A stretch of 64,000 nt of DNA from Eledone cirrhosa (Eukaryota), in contig OZ024740.1 of assembly GCA_964016885.1 (NCBI GenBank), positions 339,388,001 to 339,452,000 of the forward strand, read 5' to 3'. Positions 3,001 to 57,390 of the stretch are shown piece after piece; position 1 is the stretch's first letter; every line of letters begins with the position of its first letter. Position numbers and translations under genes: made by a program. Below the pieces are notes generated by a model that had not been told where the DNA came from, searched no databases, and saw only the letters and a list, made by a program, of their open reading frames with translations.

Positions 3001-6000
3001 TGTTTGGTGTTTATATATATATATATATATCTTTCTTTCCCCCTTTCCATTTCTCTCTCTCCTCCTCCCTCTCTCTTTCTTCCATGTGCTTCTGTTTCAT
3101 GGTTTTTAATAAAAAAAATAGTTTTTCCTGTGATATAAAGATTGCTTTGATATTGTCTATGTAATGTTATAATCTCAATACATAGCTATTGTTTCTTTGT
3201 AATTTTGCACTGCTTCCTAAAATTTAAATTCTGATTCTTAGTAATTTATTTTAATTCATTTCCATTTTTTTTTTTAATTTGAATTCTTTAATTCTATACA
3301 TGCAAACATGAATATCAAGTTGGTCTTTATTTTTTAGTCTAATCTTTCACCAATCTTTTTCACTGACTATATATATACTTAACATCATTCCCTAGTAGCG
3401 GTTTCAGTGCAAACATAGACAAAAGACCTTATTACATTTGGCTATATTCCTTTATATTCTGAGTTCAAATTATACCAAGGTCAACTTAGCTTTTCAATAA
3501 AATAAAATAACAGTGAAATACTAAATGAAAAAAATCATTACAGCTCACACTTATGTAGGTTTAGCTGGTCTCCTATGAGGTTCCATCTCATAGAAGGCTT
3601 CTAGAGGAATTTAATGATAAGGTTTCCAGCCCTATCATAAAAAGCAATGTGGAATGAAGTGTTTTTCTCAAGAACAAGATGTACCACCATTAGGCCACTG
3701 TAAAGTGGTTGTTTTGGTGCCATGATAAAAAGCACCCAGTGCATACTGTAAATGTTGTTTGAGTTAGGAAAGGCAGCCAGCCATAGAAACCAAGCTAGAA
3801 TCAGTTCTGTATGAGCAAGACAAGGTCATCTGATATGGCATGTCTCACAATGGGACAACTCATCTAACCCATGCTAGCATGGAAAAATGGAAGTTAAATG
3901 GTGATGATCATGATCATGATCATGCTCCATATTACCCACAATATTTTTGACTTTAAAGTTTGTTGGAAATTATCATTTATGTCTGTTTTCTATGCTGGTA
4001 TAGTTTGGATAGATTATCATATATTTAGTATGGTTTCTACAGCTGGATACTCTTTCTAATGCTGACTAATCTATAGAATGTATTGGGTTCATTTTATCAT
4101 GGCATCTGCACTACCAATTTGCAGAGTGTATTTTATAATTCACACAAGAGAAGTTGTCATGTACTCAACAAGACTAAATAGTCCTCTCTATCTTATATTG
4201 CCTCACCAACCACTTTACAGGGTGTAGTTGGGAAATTTTATTGTGGCACTATCATCTCTGTTTGTTTGTCAACCATTTTACAAGGGTACTGAGTGCCATT
4301 GTTGTTATTATTAAAAGTGCAGTGGATTGGCAGTTTTGGTAGAACATCGGACAACCTGCTTTGTGGCATAGAGTTACATCCTTTTATGTTCCGACTTCAA
4401 ATCCTGCTGAAGTTAGCTTTTCCTGTCATCATTACAGGCTCACTAAAATGAAGTACCAGTAATGCACTGGGGTCAATTTAATCAACTTTTCCCTTTCCTT
4501 CAAATTGTTGGCCTTATGCCAAATGTAGAAACAATTATTTTTATTTGACAGAATCATAAGAAAATTGGATAAAATGCCTCATAGTATTTGTTATGAGTCT
4601 TTAAAATCCGAGTTCAATCCCAACTTGCCTTTTGCCCTACCAGGTTTGATACAAATTAATGTCATTAACTTTTTGTGCTTGTTTTAGGAACCATTATTGT
4701 TGTTACTACTTCTACTACTACCAAAAACTGTCTTTTGACTCCCTTGTACTAGATTTTCTTGCAATACTGTCTATCATTTCTCTCTGGGGTTTTCCAGTAA
4801 CTGTAGTTGGGTCTCACCATGTGGGAAGGATAAATAAAATTACCAAAATATATACAAAAAAACAAGGTTTTTGTTAATGCCAAAATATGTATATGAAGAA
4901 GAGATAACACCTTTAGCATTTAGGATAATCCTTAGACAGATAAATGTCAGCCAAACTACAATATATTATGTATACCACGGGGGAGAAAAAATGTTTAGTG
5001 ATAAATTTTCACTTTGTTTTGAAGCTGTTGAAAGGCAGAGAAGATACTAATAAATGAGATTGGTGTTGTTAATAAGAAGCTTGTGGAACAGTGAAATCAA
5101 TATAGAAACAGTTGTAGAGCTGTAGTGATCTATTCTATATGATAGTACACATAGAAGTGCAGGTATAGTCATGGGGTTAAGGAGTTTGCTTCAGAACAAT
5201 GTGTTTTCAGGTATATACTACTCTGCATAGTAGTGTAGTAGTATATATTCATATATATAAAGTTTGGGTTGGCGTCAGAAAAAGTAGCCAGTCATAGAAA
5301 AGCTGCCTCAGAAAGTCTCATCCAATCCATGCTAGCATGGAAAAGCAGACATTGCTGATGATGTTGGCAAATGTCATATACTACAGAGCTTCCAAAGCCA
5401 ATAAAAGAAACCCCAGCTAGAAGTGGTAGCCAAATCTCCCTCAGACATCTACTACTTTAACAGAATAAAAGAAAACATTGAACAATGTACTAGTCACTGG
5501 TATACAAAAAGAGAGAATGCTTGTCGCCTTTGATCACAGATCTGCTTGGTTTGGGCTGACCAGGGGTTAAACAACAGCAACTACACAGTACATCATGCAC
5601 AAATTCACAGACCAGACTAAAAATTATATATCTTGTATTTTAGGCAGGGACTCCCAAATATACTATAGGCTTCCCTATATATTATAAGTGTTGTCTGATT
5701 CCATAGCTCCATATGTTATTTATCTCCTCTAGGAGACACAAAAAACAAATTCTCACTATTAACATAGAAACCCCTCATCTTCTCTCTCTTTTCTCTTTCA
5801 TGCCTCCATTCGTTATTTTATTATTTATCCTGCTCGCTGTTTCTCTTAGGCTTCTGTGTATATGAATGTAACAGTAGCAGCAAGTGTTTTAAGGTCATTT
5901 TCCCTTCTCAAGCAAGGGTTAGGTTTATGGGCCCCATTAAAGGTTCATGCTCATAATGGAGTTCTTTGTGAAGCCATGTTTTACAACCTAATGCCCTTCC

Positions 6001-10624: not shown

Positions 10625-11098
10625 TCATCATCATTTTACGTCCGCTTTTCCCTGCTTGCAAGGGTGGGACGGGTCTTATTCAGCACAGCATCTCTCTCTT
10701 TGTCATGGTCCATCGTCATCTCAACCGATCTGAGGTCTGTTCTCACCACCTCCGCCCATGTTTTTCGTGGTCTACCTCTATCACGTCTTCCTCCAACTGG
10801 CATTTCCTGGCACTTCTTCACCCATCGGTATTCCTCCATGCACATCACATGTCCATACCATCTCAGTCTCCTCTCTCGCACACTACATTCTATCCCTCTC
10901 AGACACAGTTTCTCTCTCAACACATTCATGCTGAGTCGTTCACACACATTGACATTGCACATGCAATGGAGCATGCTTGCCTCATTTCTCTCCAGCTGTC
11001 GCATGTCCTCTGCGGTTGCTTCTCATGTCTTACTACCATGCAGCATCGCGCTCCTCACACAGGCATCATATAACCGGCCTGTCATATGCAGGGAGAAA

Positions 11099-11100
<2 letters not shown>
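10625..11100 (-). mobile_element. RTE LINE 3' fragment (lineage D)
   Basis: ORF 10636-11004 [27 protein letters not shown]; very short 3'UTR ending GGACGTAAAATGATGATGAT; 5' end abuts (TA)n. Confidence 0.9.
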
Positions 11101-11535: not shown

Positions 11536-12016
11536 AAGGCGGGTAAAATTCCCGAGATCCATGGACGAGTTCTCTCCAGCGGTCTCTGTCCCTCATTATC
11601 GCTGCCATGTCCTGCGTCTCCAATAGACCAGTATCTGTCCTTAGGGCATCAACATACGTTAACCTTGGTCTTCCTCTTCTAGTGTGTCCATGTAGGGGCT
11701 CCCAAAGGAACACTGAGTGCAATGTCAACTCTGGATGTCGGTGAGCATGTCCAGCTAACCTCAGTCTCCTCTGTGTCACTTTTGAGCTGACTTTTGGGAT
11801 GCTCCCATACAGCTCTGAGTTTTTCATCCTCAGTATATACTGATTAATGTTCAGAGCCATCCTCAGCGTTCTCGTGTAGCACCCATCCTCCATTTGAGTG
11901 AGTTTCTTGGTCAGTGTCCAAGTCTCAGACCCATACAGCAGCACAGACTCCACTACAGCAATGAAGAGGCGGATTTTCAGGTCTCTATGAAGGTCCGACT
12001 TGCACACCAATCTCAA

Positions 12017-12450: not shown

Positions 12451-12906
<456 letters not shown>

Positions 12907-12907
12907 A

Positions 12908-14528
12908 TATTAATGATGCCCTCTTCCTTGTGAGGCAATTACAGGAAAAGTACCTAGCTAAAAGTAAGCCACTCTACTTGGCATTTGTCGACCTTGAGAA
13001 AGCCTTTGACAGAGTTCCACGTGCAGTAATCTGGTGGGCTCTTAGAAAACTAGGAGTAGATGAATGGCTTGTGAAAGCGGTACAAGCCATGTATAGGGGA
13101 GCAGTCAGCAAAGTTAGGATTAGCAATGAATATAGCGAGGAATTTAGCGTACAGGTTGGGGTCCACCAGGGCTCTGTTCTTAGCCCTCTCCTGTTCATCA
13201 TAGTCCTGCAGGCAATAACGGAGGAGTTTAAGACCGGATGCCCATGGGAACTCCTGTATGCTGATGACCTCGCACTCATAGCTGAATCTATGGTAGAACT
13301 AGAGAATAAATTCCAAACCTGGAAGCAGGGACTAGAGAGAAAGGGTCTCAAAGTCAACATGACAAAGACTAAGGCCCTTATAAGTAGACGAGAAAACAGA
13401 ACCCAGATCCCCTCAGGGAAATGGCCTTGCTCAGTATGTAGGAAAGGTGTAGGTAGGAACTCCATTCTTTGCCCCAAATGCAAACAATGGGTACACAAGA
13501 GATGTAGCGGGATCTCAGGAAGCTTAATTAAGAATGTAGGATTCACATGCAGCAGCTGTGCTGAAACAGCAAGCAAACAGCCACAGGAAACAAGTACCAC
13601 CAATCTCTGGGAGGGCCCTGTAGAGACAGTAGACAGCTTCTGCTACCTAGGTGACCGAATTAGCAACGGAGGTGGGTGCTCAGAAAGTACAATAACTAGG
13701 GTAAGAACGGGATGGAAGAAGTTTAGGGAACTACTACCACTGCTAGCTGCAAAAGGCTTCTCCCTCAGAATGAAAGGCAGACTGTATGATGCGTGTATCC
13801 GAACAGCGATGTTGCATGGTAGTGAGACCTGGGCGCTGAAGGTGGAAGACTTACGTAGATTAGAGAGAAACGAAGCCTGCATGCTCCGATGGATGTGTAA
13901 CAGTAATATACGTGAACGACAAAGCATAAAGGAATTGAGAGAGAGACTGAGCATAAGAGGAATCAAATGCTGCGTGCAGGAGAGGCGGTTACGCTGGTAT
14001 GGACATGTGATGCGTATGAAGGATGACAGCTGCATAAAAAGGTGCAGAGCACTAGAAGTTGATGGAAACTGCGGAGTGGGGAGACCCAAGATGACTTGGG
14101 ATGAGGTGATAAAAGCCGACCTTACCCAACTACACCTCTCAAAGTCAATGACACACGACCATGACTTCTGGCGTCACGCAGTAATACAGGGTACCCGACC
14201 TCCCATGGGTACATGCTGAAGCATATAAACAATATGCCCCCACTCCCTCCCACCGCAAGGTGGTCGTGGAGGTGCCACGGCAAAAAAGCACCCAGCCCAC
14301 ACTGTAAAGTGGACGTGTAGGCGCCACGAAAAAGCACCCAGCACTCACTGTAAATGAGGTTGGTGTTAGGAAGGGCATCCAGCTGTAGAAATCAAGCCAG
14401 ATCAGTTCCTGTATGAGCAAGGCATGGTCATCCAACCAGACACTGCCCACAACAGGACAACCCGTCTAACCCATGCTAGCGTGGAAGAACGGACGTAAAA
14501 CGGTGATGATGATGATGATGATGATGAT
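12908..14528 (+). mobile_element. RTE LINE lineage A, 5'-truncated, RT frame open to stop at 14219
   Basis: [44 protein letters not shown]; 3'UTR and (GAT)n tail; the ORF-track start lies inside the microsatellite and is an artefact. Confidence 0.95.
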
Positions 14529-16458: not shown

Positions 16459-16516
<58 letters not shown>

Positions 16517-16847
16517 GTATATATATATATCTGTATATATATCTGTATATATTTATATCTGTATATATATATGTATGTGTATATATATGTGTATATATAT
16601 GTATGTGTATATATATGTGTATATATATATGTATGTGTATATATGTATGTGTATATATATATGTGTATATATATATGTATGTGTATATATATGTGTATAT
16701 ATGTATATATGTATATAATTGTGTGTATATATATATATGTGTGTATATATGTATACATATATATGTGTATATATGTATATATATATTATATGTGTATATT
16801 TATATATATATATACATAATATGTGCATATGTATATATACATACATT

Positions 16848-17345
16848 GGGAATACGAAGGTGATGTGGTTGAGAGGGAGAGCAAAGCCTGGGTGGCGTGC
16901 CACAGCTTGAGATCGGTGTGGAAGTCCTGACCTTCGTGAAGACCTGAAAATCCGCCTCTTCATTGCTGTAGTGGGGTCTGTGCTGCTGTACGGGTTTGAG
17001 ACTTGGACACTGACCAAGAAACTCACTCAGATGGTGGATGGGTGCTATACGAGAATGCTGAGGATGGCTCTGAACATTAATCAGTATACACTGAGGATGA
17101 AAAACTCAGAGCTGTATGGGAGCATCCCAAAAGTCAGCTCAAAAGTGACACAGAGGAGACTGAGGTTAGCTGGACATGCTCACCGACATCCAGAGTTCCT
17201 CCTGTGCGAGCGCCTACATAGACACACTGGAAGACGAAGAGGAAGACCAAGGTTAACGTATGTTGATGCCCTAAGGACAGACACTGGTCTGTTGGAGACG
17301 CAGGACATGCCATGGATCTCGGGAATTTTACCCGCCCTAGATAGA
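16848..17345 (+). mobile_element. RTE-X-like LINE 3' fragment (lineage C)
   Basis: Homologous to 11534-12018 with internal deletions; ends CCCGCCCTAGATAGAT then TA tract. Confidence 0.85.
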
Positions 17346-31793: not shown

Positions 31794-32134
31794 GGAGGCA
31801 CATGGCTTAGTGGTTAGAGCATCGGCCTTGCAATCGAAAGGTTGTGAGTTCAATTCTCAGACCGGGTGATGTGTTGTTTCCTTGAGCAAGACGCTTTATT
31901 TCACATTGCTCCAGTTTACTCAGCTGTAGAAATGAGATGATAGGGACTGGGGTCCATATCATTCCACTGCAAAGTGGTCGTGCAGGTGCCACGGCAAAAA
32001 AGCACCCAGCACTCACTGTAAATGAGGTTGGTGTTAGGAAGGGCATCCAGCTGTAGAAATCAAGCCAGAATCAGTTCCCGTCCCACCCTTGCAAGCAGGG
32101 AAAAAGTGGACGTTAAATGAAATGATGATGAATG

Positions 32135-32138
<4 letters not shown>
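31794..32138 (+). mobile_element. tRNA-derived SINE family 2 with RTE-derived tail
   Basis: A box TGGCTTAGTGG, B box GAGTTCAATTC, core CCTTGAGCAAGACGCTTTATTTCAC, RTE 3'UTR tail, (GAT)n; copies at 48689-49012, 61950-62090 and 34050-34228 (-). Confidence 0.88.
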
Positions 32139-32203
<65 letters not shown>

Positions 32204-48688: not shown

Positions 48689-49012
48689 GGAGGCACATGG
48701 CTTAGTGGTTAGAGCATTGGCAATCGAAAGGTTGTGAGTTCAATTCTCAGACCGGGTGATGTGTTGTTTCCTTGAGCAAGACACTTTATTTCACATTGCT
48801 CCAGTTTACTCAGCTGTAGAAATGAGATGATAGGATTGTGGTCCCTCTCATTCCACTGTAAAGTGGACGTGTAGGTGCCATGGAAAAAAAGCACCCAGCA
48901 ATCACTGTAAATGAGGTTGGTGTTAGGAAGGTCATCCAGCTGTAGAAATCAAGCCAGAATTAGTTCCCGTCCCTTGCAAGCAGGGAAAAGTGGACGTAAA
49001 ATGATGATGATG
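48689..49012 (+). mobile_element. SINE family 2 with RTE-derived tail
   Basis: Close match to 31794-32138. Confidence 0.9.
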
Positions 49013-49235
49013 ATATATATATATATTCATCACCATTTTACGGCTATTTTTTCACAGTAGCATGGGTTAGATGAAGCATGGGATATATAAATATCCGTAT
49101 GTAGTTGCCCGCTGAGAAAAAAGAGTGCTCAATACTGAAGCAAAGTTTAAATATTCATTTTATTAAGGCTAAATAGTGAGTAACAAGACCCACTCTAAAA
49201 CCTTAATAAAATAAATATGTGTGTGTGTGTGTATA

Positions 49236-55655: not shown

Positions 55656-57390
55656 TTAACCCTTTCATTACAATATTTCTAAAGACACTGCCTAGGATTT
55701 TTAAATCATTTTGAAAATAATCAAGAATTTGGAGGGCTTTATTAAAATAGCTAATATTCTTATTAAGCTGGTGTTTGGAACATAACTTAACAAACGTTCT
55801 TACATGATATTGTGATAGAAGTTTTTAGACAAATATAAACCCAGTCTACACTGTAAAGTGGTTGTTTAGGTGACAACAAAAATCACCCAGCACACACTGT
55901 AAAGTGGTCATGTAGGTGTCACAACAAAAAGCACCCAGCACACACTGTAAAGTGGTCATGTAGGTGTCACAACAAAAAGCAGCCAGCACACACTGTAAAG
56001 TGGTCATGTAGGTGTCACGACAAAAAGCACCCAGCACACACTGTAAAGTGGTCATGTAGGTGTCATGACAAAAAGCAGCCAGCACACACTGTAAAGTGGT
56101 CATGTAGGTGTCACAATAAAAAGCACCCAGCACACACTGTAAAGTGGTCATGTAGGTGTCATGACAAAAAGCACCCAGCACACACTGTAAAGTGGTCATG
56201 TAGGTGTCATGACAAAAAGCACCCAGCACACACTGTAAAGTGGTCATGTAGGTGTCACAACAAAAAGCACCCAGCACACACTGTAAAGTGGTCATGTAGG
56301 TCTCACAACAAAAAGCACCCAGCACACACTGTAAAGTGGTCATGTAGGTGACACGACAAAAAGCACCCAGTCCACACTGTGAAGTGGTCATGTAGGTGTC
56401 ATGACAAAAAGCACCCAGCACACACTGTAAAGTGGTCATGTAGGTGTCACAACAAAAAGCACCCAGCACACACTGTAAAGTGGTCATGTAGGTGTCATGA
56501 CAAAAAGCAGCCAGCACACACTGTAAAGTGGTCATGTAGGTGTCACAATAAAAAGCACCCAGCACACACTGTAAAGTGGTCATGTAGGTGTCATGACAAA
56601 AAGCACCCAGCACACACTGTAAAGTGGACATGTAGGTGTCACAACAAAAAGCACCCAGCACACACTGTAAAGTGGTCATGTAGGTCTCACAACAAAAAGC
56701 ACCCAGTCCACACTGTAAAGTGGTCATGTAGGTGTCACAACAAAAGCACCCAGTCCACACTGTAAAGTGGTCATGTAGGTCTCACAACAAAAAGCACCCA
56801 GCACACACTGTAAAGTGGTCATGTAGGTGTCACAACAAAAAGCACCCAGCACACACTGTAAAGTGGTCATGTAGGTCTCACAACAAAAAGCACCCAGCAC
56901 ACACTGTAAAGTGGTCATGTAGGTGACACGACAAAAAGCACCCAGTCCACACTGTGAAGTGGTCATGTAGGTGTCATGACAAAAAGCACCCAGCACACAC
57001 TGTAAAGTGGTCATGTAGGTGTCACAACAAAAAGCACCCAGTCCACACTGTAAAGTGGTCATGTAGATGTCACAACAAAAAGCACCCAGTCGACATTGCG
57101 AAGTGGTCGTGTAAGCATCACAACAAAAAGCACCCAGCACACACTGTAAATGTGGTTGGCATTAGGAAGGGCATCCAGCCATAAAAAATAAGCCAAAATC
57201 CATTCTGTGTGAACGAATCACGGTCCCCCGACCTGATCTCTCACAAAGGGACAGCCCATCCTACCCATGCTAGCGTAGAAGATAGACATTAAACGACGAC
57301 GATGATGATGATGATAAACACTTGAAAATAAACTGCTTTGTATCATAAAACTAGTGGTGGTTTCAGGGGGTTTGGTATCAAAAGGATTGA
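55656..57390. mobile_element. piggyBac-like MITE interrupted by the 48-bp array insertion
   Basis: Left end TTAACCCTTT; right part 57320-57390 matches the MITE end at ~53700-53764 (..GTATCATAAAACTAG..AAAGGGTTAA); relatives at ~21168-21685 and ~58600-58840. Confidence 0.55.
55841..57150 (+). repeat. 48-bp tandem array (~27 copies) derived from the RTE 3'UTR module
   Basis: Unit CACACTGTAAAGTGGTCATGTAGGTGTCAYRACAAAAAGCACCCAGCA; continues directly into RTE terminal box and tail (57150-57315). Confidence 0.97.

What the first reader, a model, noticed from the sequence alone, without database searches (positions are those of the whole stretch)
14250..14412. Covarying tandem GNRA-hairpin and H-type pseudoknot modules in RTE 3'UTRs
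Seen: each ~48-nt module has a hairpin CACC-GCAA-GGTG (elsewhere CACT-GTAA-AGTG, CACT-GTGA-AGTG, CACT-GCAA-AGTG, so the loop stays GNRA and the stem covaries). It is followed by stem 1 GTCGTG/CACGGC, whose loop GGTGC pairs with GCACC after an A-run linker. In lineage B the pairs change together (TCGTG/CACGA with GTGT/ACAC; GCCGTG/CACGGT with AGG/CCT). The terminal box GTTGG..CCAGC has loop AGGAA complementary to downstream TTCCT in A, and TAGGA to TCCTA in B. Inference: a multi-pseudoknot 3' domain reminiscent of plant-virus upstream pseudoknot domains, possibly for RT recognition, nuclease resistance or translation of non-polyadenylated RNA. It is retained in SINE tails.
Basis: partly seen in the sequence, partly recalled or inferred. 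Interest (0 to 1): 0.7.

Follow-up and report, generated by a model that had tools for sequence, protein, structure and literature searches.

The report
Start-codon pseudoknot moved to retrotransposon tail
The repeated, predicted RNA knots at the tail of this jumping gene are likely a transplanted copy of a segment that related jumping genes carry at their front, a nearly fixed distance before the start codon, where it likely helps ribosomes begin translation.

Summary
The stems are present at 14250-14410, in the 3'UTR of an RTE-type LINE (lineage A). The cassette is not a native 3' domain. It lies in the 5'UTR of sister lineage C and of 13 of 16 relatives from other sources, and in 0 of 33 metagenome 3' ends. 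The 3'-carrying families form one nested clade (95/88) and lack it at 5'.

Hairpin GGA/TCC covaries (GCA/TGC, GTA/TAC), and its loop pairs with TGCY after an 8-11-nt linker. GTTGG/CCAGC scores like shuffles (272/500), and AGGAA/TTCCT is not conserved.

In 12 of 13 outside 5' copies the ORF's AUG lies 26-38 nt after the hairpin; A and B keep an AUG there. Upstream modules are supported between hand-picked families (0/500 shuffles) but not by a tree-aware genome test. The GNRA register holds in 5 of 10.

Best reading: an RTE 5'UTR pseudoknot that likely positions the start codon, moved once to the 3' end through a bipartite element. Function is untested.

The parts
12906..14219 (+). 5'-truncated ORF of an RTE-type LINE (lineage A): RT, PHD finger, C-terminus, TGA stop at 14217-14219
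   Evidence: Pfam RVT_1 and PHD; a full-length sister ORF of 1040 aa has endonuclease, RT and PHD
14193..14209 (+). Likely remnant of the original 3' tail, overlapping the last codons
   Evidence: Resembles the lineage-C tail that starts in the same T-R-P codons; inference
14250..14263 (+). Hairpin 1, CCACC-GCAA-GGTGG (5 bp, GNRA loop)
14263..14292 (+). Module 1 predicted H-type pseudoknot: S1 14263-14268/14276-14281, S2 14271-14275/14288-14292, A6 linker
14300..14311 (+). Hairpin 2, CACT-GTAA-AGTG (alternative register CCAC/GTGG)
14314..14338 (+). Module 2, weaker predicted pseudoknot: S1 14314-14317/14325-14328, S2 14320-14324/14334-14338 with one mismatch
14344..14358 (+). Hairpin before the box, CTCA-CTGTAAA-TGAG (the GNRA register fails here)
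14358..14398 (+). Conserved RTE 5'UTR box, revised fold: P1 14358-14361/14381-14384; 7-nt bulge 14362-14368; P3 GGA 14369-14371/TCC 14378-14380; loop AGGGCA, whose GGC 14374-14376 pairs GCC 14396-14398 after an 11-nt A-rich linker
14406..14410 (+). TTCCT: complementary to AGGAA in A and B only; competes with P3
14413..14469 (+). AUG 32 nt after P3, opening an 18-codon frame; likely the vestige of the donor's start codon
   Evidence: same spacing as the 5' copies
14460..14528 (+). RTE 3' tail and (TGA)n end
   Evidence: similar to the lineage-C and metagenome tails

Best explanation
The cassette is a predicted RNA pseudoknot array that related RTE retrotransposons carry in their 5'UTR, likely to seat the ribosome on an AUG about 10-15 nt beyond the last knot, and that was likely moved once to the 3' end in the ancestor of lineages A and B. 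Shown: 5' position in relatives, fixed AUG spacing, compensatory changes in P3, one nested 3' clade, absence of the box from the 5' regions of A and B. Inferred: a bipartite non-autonomous RTE (5'UTR piece, AUG, tail) was appended behind the old tail; the 48-nt unit then duplicated by slippage; SINEs and the 3' copies keep the knot because it would still bring their RNA to ribosomes making the RTE protein. None of the functions is tested.
For: Position: 5'UTR box in 9 of 20 lineage-C copies fetched (the other 11 do not reach that region or lack it), 11 of 13 metagenome loci with 5' flank and 2 of 3 elements from contigs filed in prokaryote MAGs; 0 of 33 metagenome 3' ends. A and B 5' regions: none inside the shared element in 30 and 30 loci. 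Tree: 5 of 5 3' families form one clade, 95/88, sister to C. Fold: P3 paired in 54 of 54 cells, middle pair GC 14, CG 2, UA 1, GU 1; P1+P3 0/500 shuffles; loop pairs downstream after an 8-11-nt linker in 16 of 18 best helices, 14 of them of 3 bp or more (Fisher p 2e-5 over 16). Spacing: in-frame AUG at +26 to +38 in 12 of 13 outside 5' copies, while AUG-to-endonuclease distance varies over about 110-290 nt (uniform null about 1e-12 for the first 12). An in-frame stop lies between box and AUG in 6 of 12, so no frameshift into the ORF. A bipartite copy (box, ATG, tail) exists (L124). Type IV IRES pseudoknots position the start codon at a set distance (PMC11157119 passages).
Against: No functional or probing data. 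Lineage C itself has its AUG at +59 and L262 at +48. The loop side of the second helix is nearly invariant, so only L241 covaries there, and L242 and L268 pair poorly. P3 covariation rests on one column and at most four events. The 48-nt modules show no significant covariation in the tree-aware test. A and B translate without a 5' box, so it is dispensable there. No domain-II or eIF3-binding equivalent was seen; the element is far smaller than 180-420-nt type IV IRESs. Complementarity to 18S rRNA (9 nt) is within chance (p 0.07-0.21). Outside sequences are not phylogenetically independent and their hosts are unknown.
Confidence: 0.5

Rival explanations
1. Same 5'UTR origin, but the knot is a binding site for the RTE protein (as the 5' pseudoknot of R2 RNA is), needed for RNP assembly or second-strand steps, and works from either end of the RNA.
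For: Retained in non-coding SINEs and at the 3' end of A and B for long enough to diverge (A and B about 76-80% aa identical); invariant bulge and loop bases; R2 precedent (PMC6765202 passage).
Against: Does not by itself explain the tight AUG spacing; other LINE-associated SINE boxes (L268) lose the downstream helix.
Confidence: 0.24
2. One reading: a native 3' multi-pseudoknot domain, like the TMV upstream pseudoknot domain, for RT recognition, nuclease resistance or translation of non-polyadenylated RNA.
For: Tandem predicted knots upstream of a non-poly(A) tail in A and B; family-level pairing; A and B lack a 5' box, so a 3' enhancer role may have been gained secondarily.
Against: Absent from 33 metagenome and 30 lineage-C 3' ends; 3' placement is derived; 5' ends of 21 A-like and 28 B-like insertions show no clear pile-up at a module edge beyond chimeric junctions (low power); unit number is labile (1, 2, 3, up to 27.3).
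Confidence: 0.11
3. The conserved box is a DNA-level element (internal promoter or factor site); the 3' copies are passengers and the modules a minisatellite.
For: Very high sequence conservation; Kojima 2018 speculates on regulator binding for RTE 5'UTR pieces; pure module arrays with decayed stems exist; one search is negative.
Against: Changes on both sides of the P3 pair and of module S1 pairs; spacing is tied to the AUG, not to the element's 5' end.
Confidence: 0.1
4. The box is an undescribed self-cleaving ribozyme.
For: RTE 5'UTRs carry HDV-like and twister ribozymes; compact knot with invariant unpaired bases.
Against: No Rfam ribozyme match at E up to 1 in 14 loci. Cleavage would cut ORF from tail in A and B and head from tail in the SINE, yet joined copies abound. 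It lies at the AUG, with up to 380 nt of contig upstream.
Confidence: 0.05

Closest known systems
Bipartite non-autonomous RTE elements and RTE 5'UTR-derived SINE bodies (Kojima 2018, PMC5786205; Kojima 2020, PMC7245038)
   Same: An RTE 5'UTR piece joined to an RTE tail, kept in SINEs behind a CORE-like body; L240 even begins with the end of Kojima's Ceph/RTE domain.
   Different: This box is a different segment (0 hits for AAGGGCA in the supplement text; Fig. S4 unreadable). Here it is captured into the 3'UTR of an autonomous LINE, and a fold and AUG spacing are proposed; the parts read propose neither.
Type IV (HCV-like) IRES core: IIIe tetraloop hairpin, IIIf pseudoknot, IIId GGG loop (PMC11157119)
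   Same: Hairpin plus pseudoknot at a set distance before the AUG (9-19 nt in 8 of 9 outside copies with a clear knot); a GGG-containing loop.
   Different: About 60-110 nt instead of 180-420; no four-way junction or domain II seen; the GGG here is predicted to be paired; no sequence homology.
R2 5' RNA pseudoknot, and HDV-like or twister ribozymes at retrotransposon 5' ends (PMC6765202, PMC8501958)
   Same: Structured 5'UTR of a single-ORF non-LTR element, linked to cap-independent translation or protein binding.
   Different: No ribozyme family match; sits next to the AUG; occurs 3' in A and B.
TMV upstream pseudoknot domain (PMC4683447, listing and abstract start only)
   Same: Tandem small H-type knots upstream of a non-poly(A) end.
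   Different: Derived from a 5'UTR, interleaved with hairpins, variable in number, absent from the 3' ends of relatives.

Membership tests
RTE-clade non-LTR retrotransposon | Single ORF with AP-type endonuclease and RT | tested here: met
   1040-aa and 1024-aa ORFs with PF03372 and PF00078, plus PHD
RTE-clade non-LTR retrotransposon | Short-repeat 3' end, frequent 5' truncation | tested here: met
   (TGA)n ends and truncations; feature from PMC2887409 passages
RTE-clade non-LTR retrotransposon | Very short 3'UTR | tested here: not met
   A and B have about 290-390 nt; lineage C and most relatives have short tails
RTE-clade non-LTR retrotransposon | RT groups with named RTE or Rex3 references | not tested
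   No named reference in the tree; the RTE and Expander/Rex3 labels rest on architecture and recalled motifs
Bipartite RTE derivative | 5'UTR piece joined to a 3' tail without the ORF | tested here: met
   L124; cassette, AUG and tail in A and B
H-type pseudoknot | Two crossing stems, short L1, A-rich L3, supported by compensatory change | tested here: inconclusive
   Positive between families, negative in the tree-aware genome test; second stems mostly invariant
H-type pseudoknot | Structure shown by probing | not testable with these tools
   Needs SHAPE or DMS
Type IV IRES | Pseudoknot at a fixed distance before the AUG | tested here: met
Type IV IRES | Domain II and branched domain III, 180-420 nt, Rfam IRES match | tested here: not met
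   No Rfam hit; no such domains seen. Not a member.
Type IV IRES | Direct 40S binding and cap-independent initiation | not testable with these tools
   Needs toe-printing and reporters
Known self-cleaving ribozymes | Match to a twister, HDV-like, hammerhead, pistol or hatchet model | tested here: not met
Frameshift or readthrough pseudoknot | Knot inside a frame that continues into the main ORF | tested here: not met
   In-frame stop between box and AUG in 6 of 12
TMV-type upstream pseudoknot domain | Conserved 3'UTR position across the group | tested here: not met
   0 of 33 and 0 of 30 related 3' ends

The most novel reading that the evidence does not exclude
A whole branch of RTE retrotransposons uses a minimal (about 60 nt) ribosome-binding pseudoknot that positions the AUG like a viral type IV IRES. 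One lineage moved it to the 3'UTR, where it works as a cap- and poly(A)-independent enhancer, and SINEs keep it to ride on ribosomes making RTE protein, as Alu does through its SRP domain.
Probability: 0.25. Interest if true: 0.8.

Novelty: new variant of a known kind. Interest (0 to 1): 0.56.

Why it matters
Why distant RTE elements and their SINEs share conserved 5'UTR pieces is an open question (Kojima 2018 leaves it at speculation). This gives one such piece a fold, natural compensatory variants and a measurable spacing rule, so reporter and binding tests can be designed directly. It also records a rare 5'-to-3' move of a cis element in an active LINE lineage. The box is abundant: 114 pattern matches in 1.254 Mb sampled (a few of them chance; the sample leans to small chromosomes).

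Tried and rejected
Rfam: 0 gathering hits in the window; only sub-threshold miRNA and lncRNA matches in 14 loci. Viral contigs: 45 pattern matches, none near an RTE ORF; protein scan empty. Tree-aware covariation of modules: nothing significant; one alignment, a crude tree from 50 columns, many decayed copies, low power. AGGAA-far pairing: kept only as a possible alternative fold in A and B. 18S complementarity: within chance. 5'-end pile-up for nuclease resistance: none clear, low power. No RNA holder listed, which is no evidence on expression; contigs laid only show that box and module occur in other organisms' runs. ARAGORN: 0. One search hit an unrelated, more distant RTE-like family, later used as outgroup. 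One search used a faulty pattern and was replaced. Literature searches listed no paper describing this fold; subscription papers and Repbase entries were not searchable, and Ruminski 2011 was not held.

Full report
Setting. The window lies in a 3.0-Gb genome. Its 2.87-kb 18S gene and repeat content suggest a coleoid cephalopod (inference from recalled features). The finding sits behind the stop of a 5'-truncated LINE ORF, 12906-14219 (RT and PHD). Full-length sisters have one 1040-aa ORF with endonuclease, RT and PHD. The element ends in a tail and (TGA)n at 14460-14528. The RTE label rests on this architecture; no named reference was placed in a tree.

Observation. Module 2 is weaker than module 1. 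In 1.254 Mb of sampled genome a fuzzy pattern found 114 boxes; with targeted loci, 227 distinct contexts fell into lineage A (51), a SINE (29), lineage B (28), lineage C (9), five small clusters (one a chance match) and 91 near-singletons. Units number two in A, up to three in B, one in the SINE and in C, and 27.3 in the array at 55848-57156.

Position. Lineage C (window 10640-11100, minus) runs from ORF straight into the tail in 30 of 30 copies. Its 5'UTR carries hairpin, module, hairpin and box (9 of 20 copies fetched show it; 8 were aligned). A scan of metagenome contigs by protein alone returned 79 relatives. Of 13 with 5' flank, 11 carry the box in the 5'UTR (L256 and L284 do not); 0 of 33 3' ends carry it. 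Contigs filed in prokaryote MAGs add two elements with the 5' box (both on L315) and one without (L314). The 5' regions of A (tandem monomers of about 290 bp) and B lack the box in 30 loci each; boxes further upstream in five A loci and two B loci lie beyond the shared element, and three of these were read as neighbouring insertions (part's output was cut). In a 26-row RT tree the five 3'-carrying families form one clade (95/88), sister to C and nested among 5'-carrying relatives (four rows under half filled). The 3' position is therefore derived, most simply by one move.

How it moved (inferred). The ORF end of A and B keeps a tail-like remnant. Cassette, an AUG at the 5'-type spacing (+32 in A, +28 in B) and a second tail follow; 136 of 227 own-genome boxes have an ATG at +21 to +42, peaking at +28 and +32/33 (targeted copies included). 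L124 is a bipartite element: box, ATG, tail (one copy). Appending such an element behind an autonomous LINE gives the A/B anatomy. The SINE at 31794-32140 has a tRNA-like head and CORE-like body (both recalled labels; ARAGORN found nothing), an A-type module and box, and the C tail. Kojima 2018 (parts 1-4 of 5 read, supplement part 1 of 15 and two searches; Fig. S4 is an image and may bear on novelty) describes bipartite RTEs and conserved RTE 5'UTR pieces in SINEs, without a fold.

Fold of the box. On 18 sequences (three own, 15 outside) hairpin P3, GGA-AGGGCA-TCC, pairs in 54 of 54 cells. Its middle pair is G-C in 14, C-G in 2, U-A in 1 and G-U in 1; with P1 (GGTT/RRCY) it beats 500 of 500 shuffles (the tool warns that related sequences can do this). 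The loop's best downstream helix follows an 8-11-nt A-rich linker in 16 of 18, with 3 bp or more in 14; combined p is 2e-5 over 16 sequences; L241 changes both sides of one pair; L242 and L268 pair poorly. A hairpin of unrelated sequence usually precedes the box (combined p 0.003, weak singly). AGGAA-far pairing of five or more Watson-Crick pairs occurs in 3 of 18.

Fold of the modules. Fifteen hand-picked representatives, two from outside the genome, give 79% pairing, 7 of 11 pairs changed on both sides and 0/500 shuffles; an alternative inner S1 pair scores alike. Selection by pattern biases this upward. The unbiased tree-aware test on 288 rows found nothing. The GNRA register holds in 5 of 10 family hairpins. 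The modules are plausible knots, less secure than P3.

Link to the start codon. In 13 outside 5' copies the first in-frame AUG after the box lies at +26, 26, 28, 28, 28, 29, 30, 32, 32, 33, 34, 38 and 48 from P3, although the distance on to the endonuclease domain varies widely. That is 9-19 nt past the knot in 8 of 9 outside copies where the knot end is clear. Lineage C is an exception (+59). Six of 12 have an in-frame stop between box and AUG, which excludes a recoding signal. Type IV IRES pseudoknots position the AUG at a set distance (PMC11157119, passages), and structured 5' ends support translation in R2, L1Tc and Perere-3 (PMC6765202, PMC8501958, passages). The element lacks the other IRES domains, so it may work like one but is not one.

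Mechanism. Most likely (0.5) a 5'UTR knot that seats the ribosome on the AUG, kept in SINEs and in the 3' copies because it would still engage ribosomes. Rivals: ORF-protein binding (0.24), native 3' domain (0.11), DNA element with passenger repeats (0.10), ribozyme (0.05). Origin and position are well supported; function is inferred only. No RNA run was listed.

Novelty. Nine literature searches listed nothing on this fold, spacing or relocation; other papers seen as passages only were PMC7245038, PMC13282606 and PMC2887409. Repbase and subscription papers were out of reach. Verdict: new variant of a known kind, interest 0.56.

Noticed in passing
window 55848-57156: Minisatellite of 27.3 copies of the 48-bp module ending in a box and tail; similar arrays occur in L078, L342, L381, L143 and L373, and L368 repeats module plus box.
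   Followed up: partly
window 31794-32140 and about 48700-49030: SINE with tRNA-like head, CORE-like body, A-type module and box, and lineage-C tail; some copies (L176, L007) carry the lineage-A 3' end instead, showing tail exchange.
   Followed up: partly
L167, L177, L189 (5' of lineage A): Lineage A begins with tandem monomers of about 290 bp, reminiscent of mouse L1 promoter monomers (recalled); lineage B has a different 5' region of about 900-1100 nt.
   Followed up: no
L150 about 2170-2225: Lineage-C 5'UTR stem with an inner hairpin (AGAGAGG...GTCT-AGTA-AGAC...CCTCTCT) has the same layout as Kojima's Ceph/RTE domain although the sequence differs.
   Followed up: no
L240 60-95, L260 about 235-275, L315 about 3945-3985, L237 about 70-170: A shared motif GCCTT...AAAGGCTAGG upstream of the box encloses a TGGTG-type loop with two exclusive pairings; duplicated in L237; no Rfam match.
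   Followed up: no
L260 1-150 and L315 about 3700-3850: Two distant relatives share a conserved 5'-terminal segment beginning CAGGTGGCGGATAG; possible structured RNA.
   Followed up: no
L446 (18S, position 2443 of the gene) versus the box core: The invariant core has a 9-nt complement in 18S rRNA; within chance (p 0.07-0.21).
   Followed up: yes
L314-L325: RTE-like contigs are filed inside prokaryote MAGs, most likely eukaryotic contamination.
   Followed up: no
L268, L273, L276, L283, L306: A SINE-like repeat in another organism's contigs carries the box; in L268 and L273 the downstream TGCY partner is missing.
   Followed up: partly
window about 16500-17300 and 11537-11980 (minus): A second, distant RTE-like family (about 26% aa identity to lineage A) with its own short tail.
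   Followed up: partly
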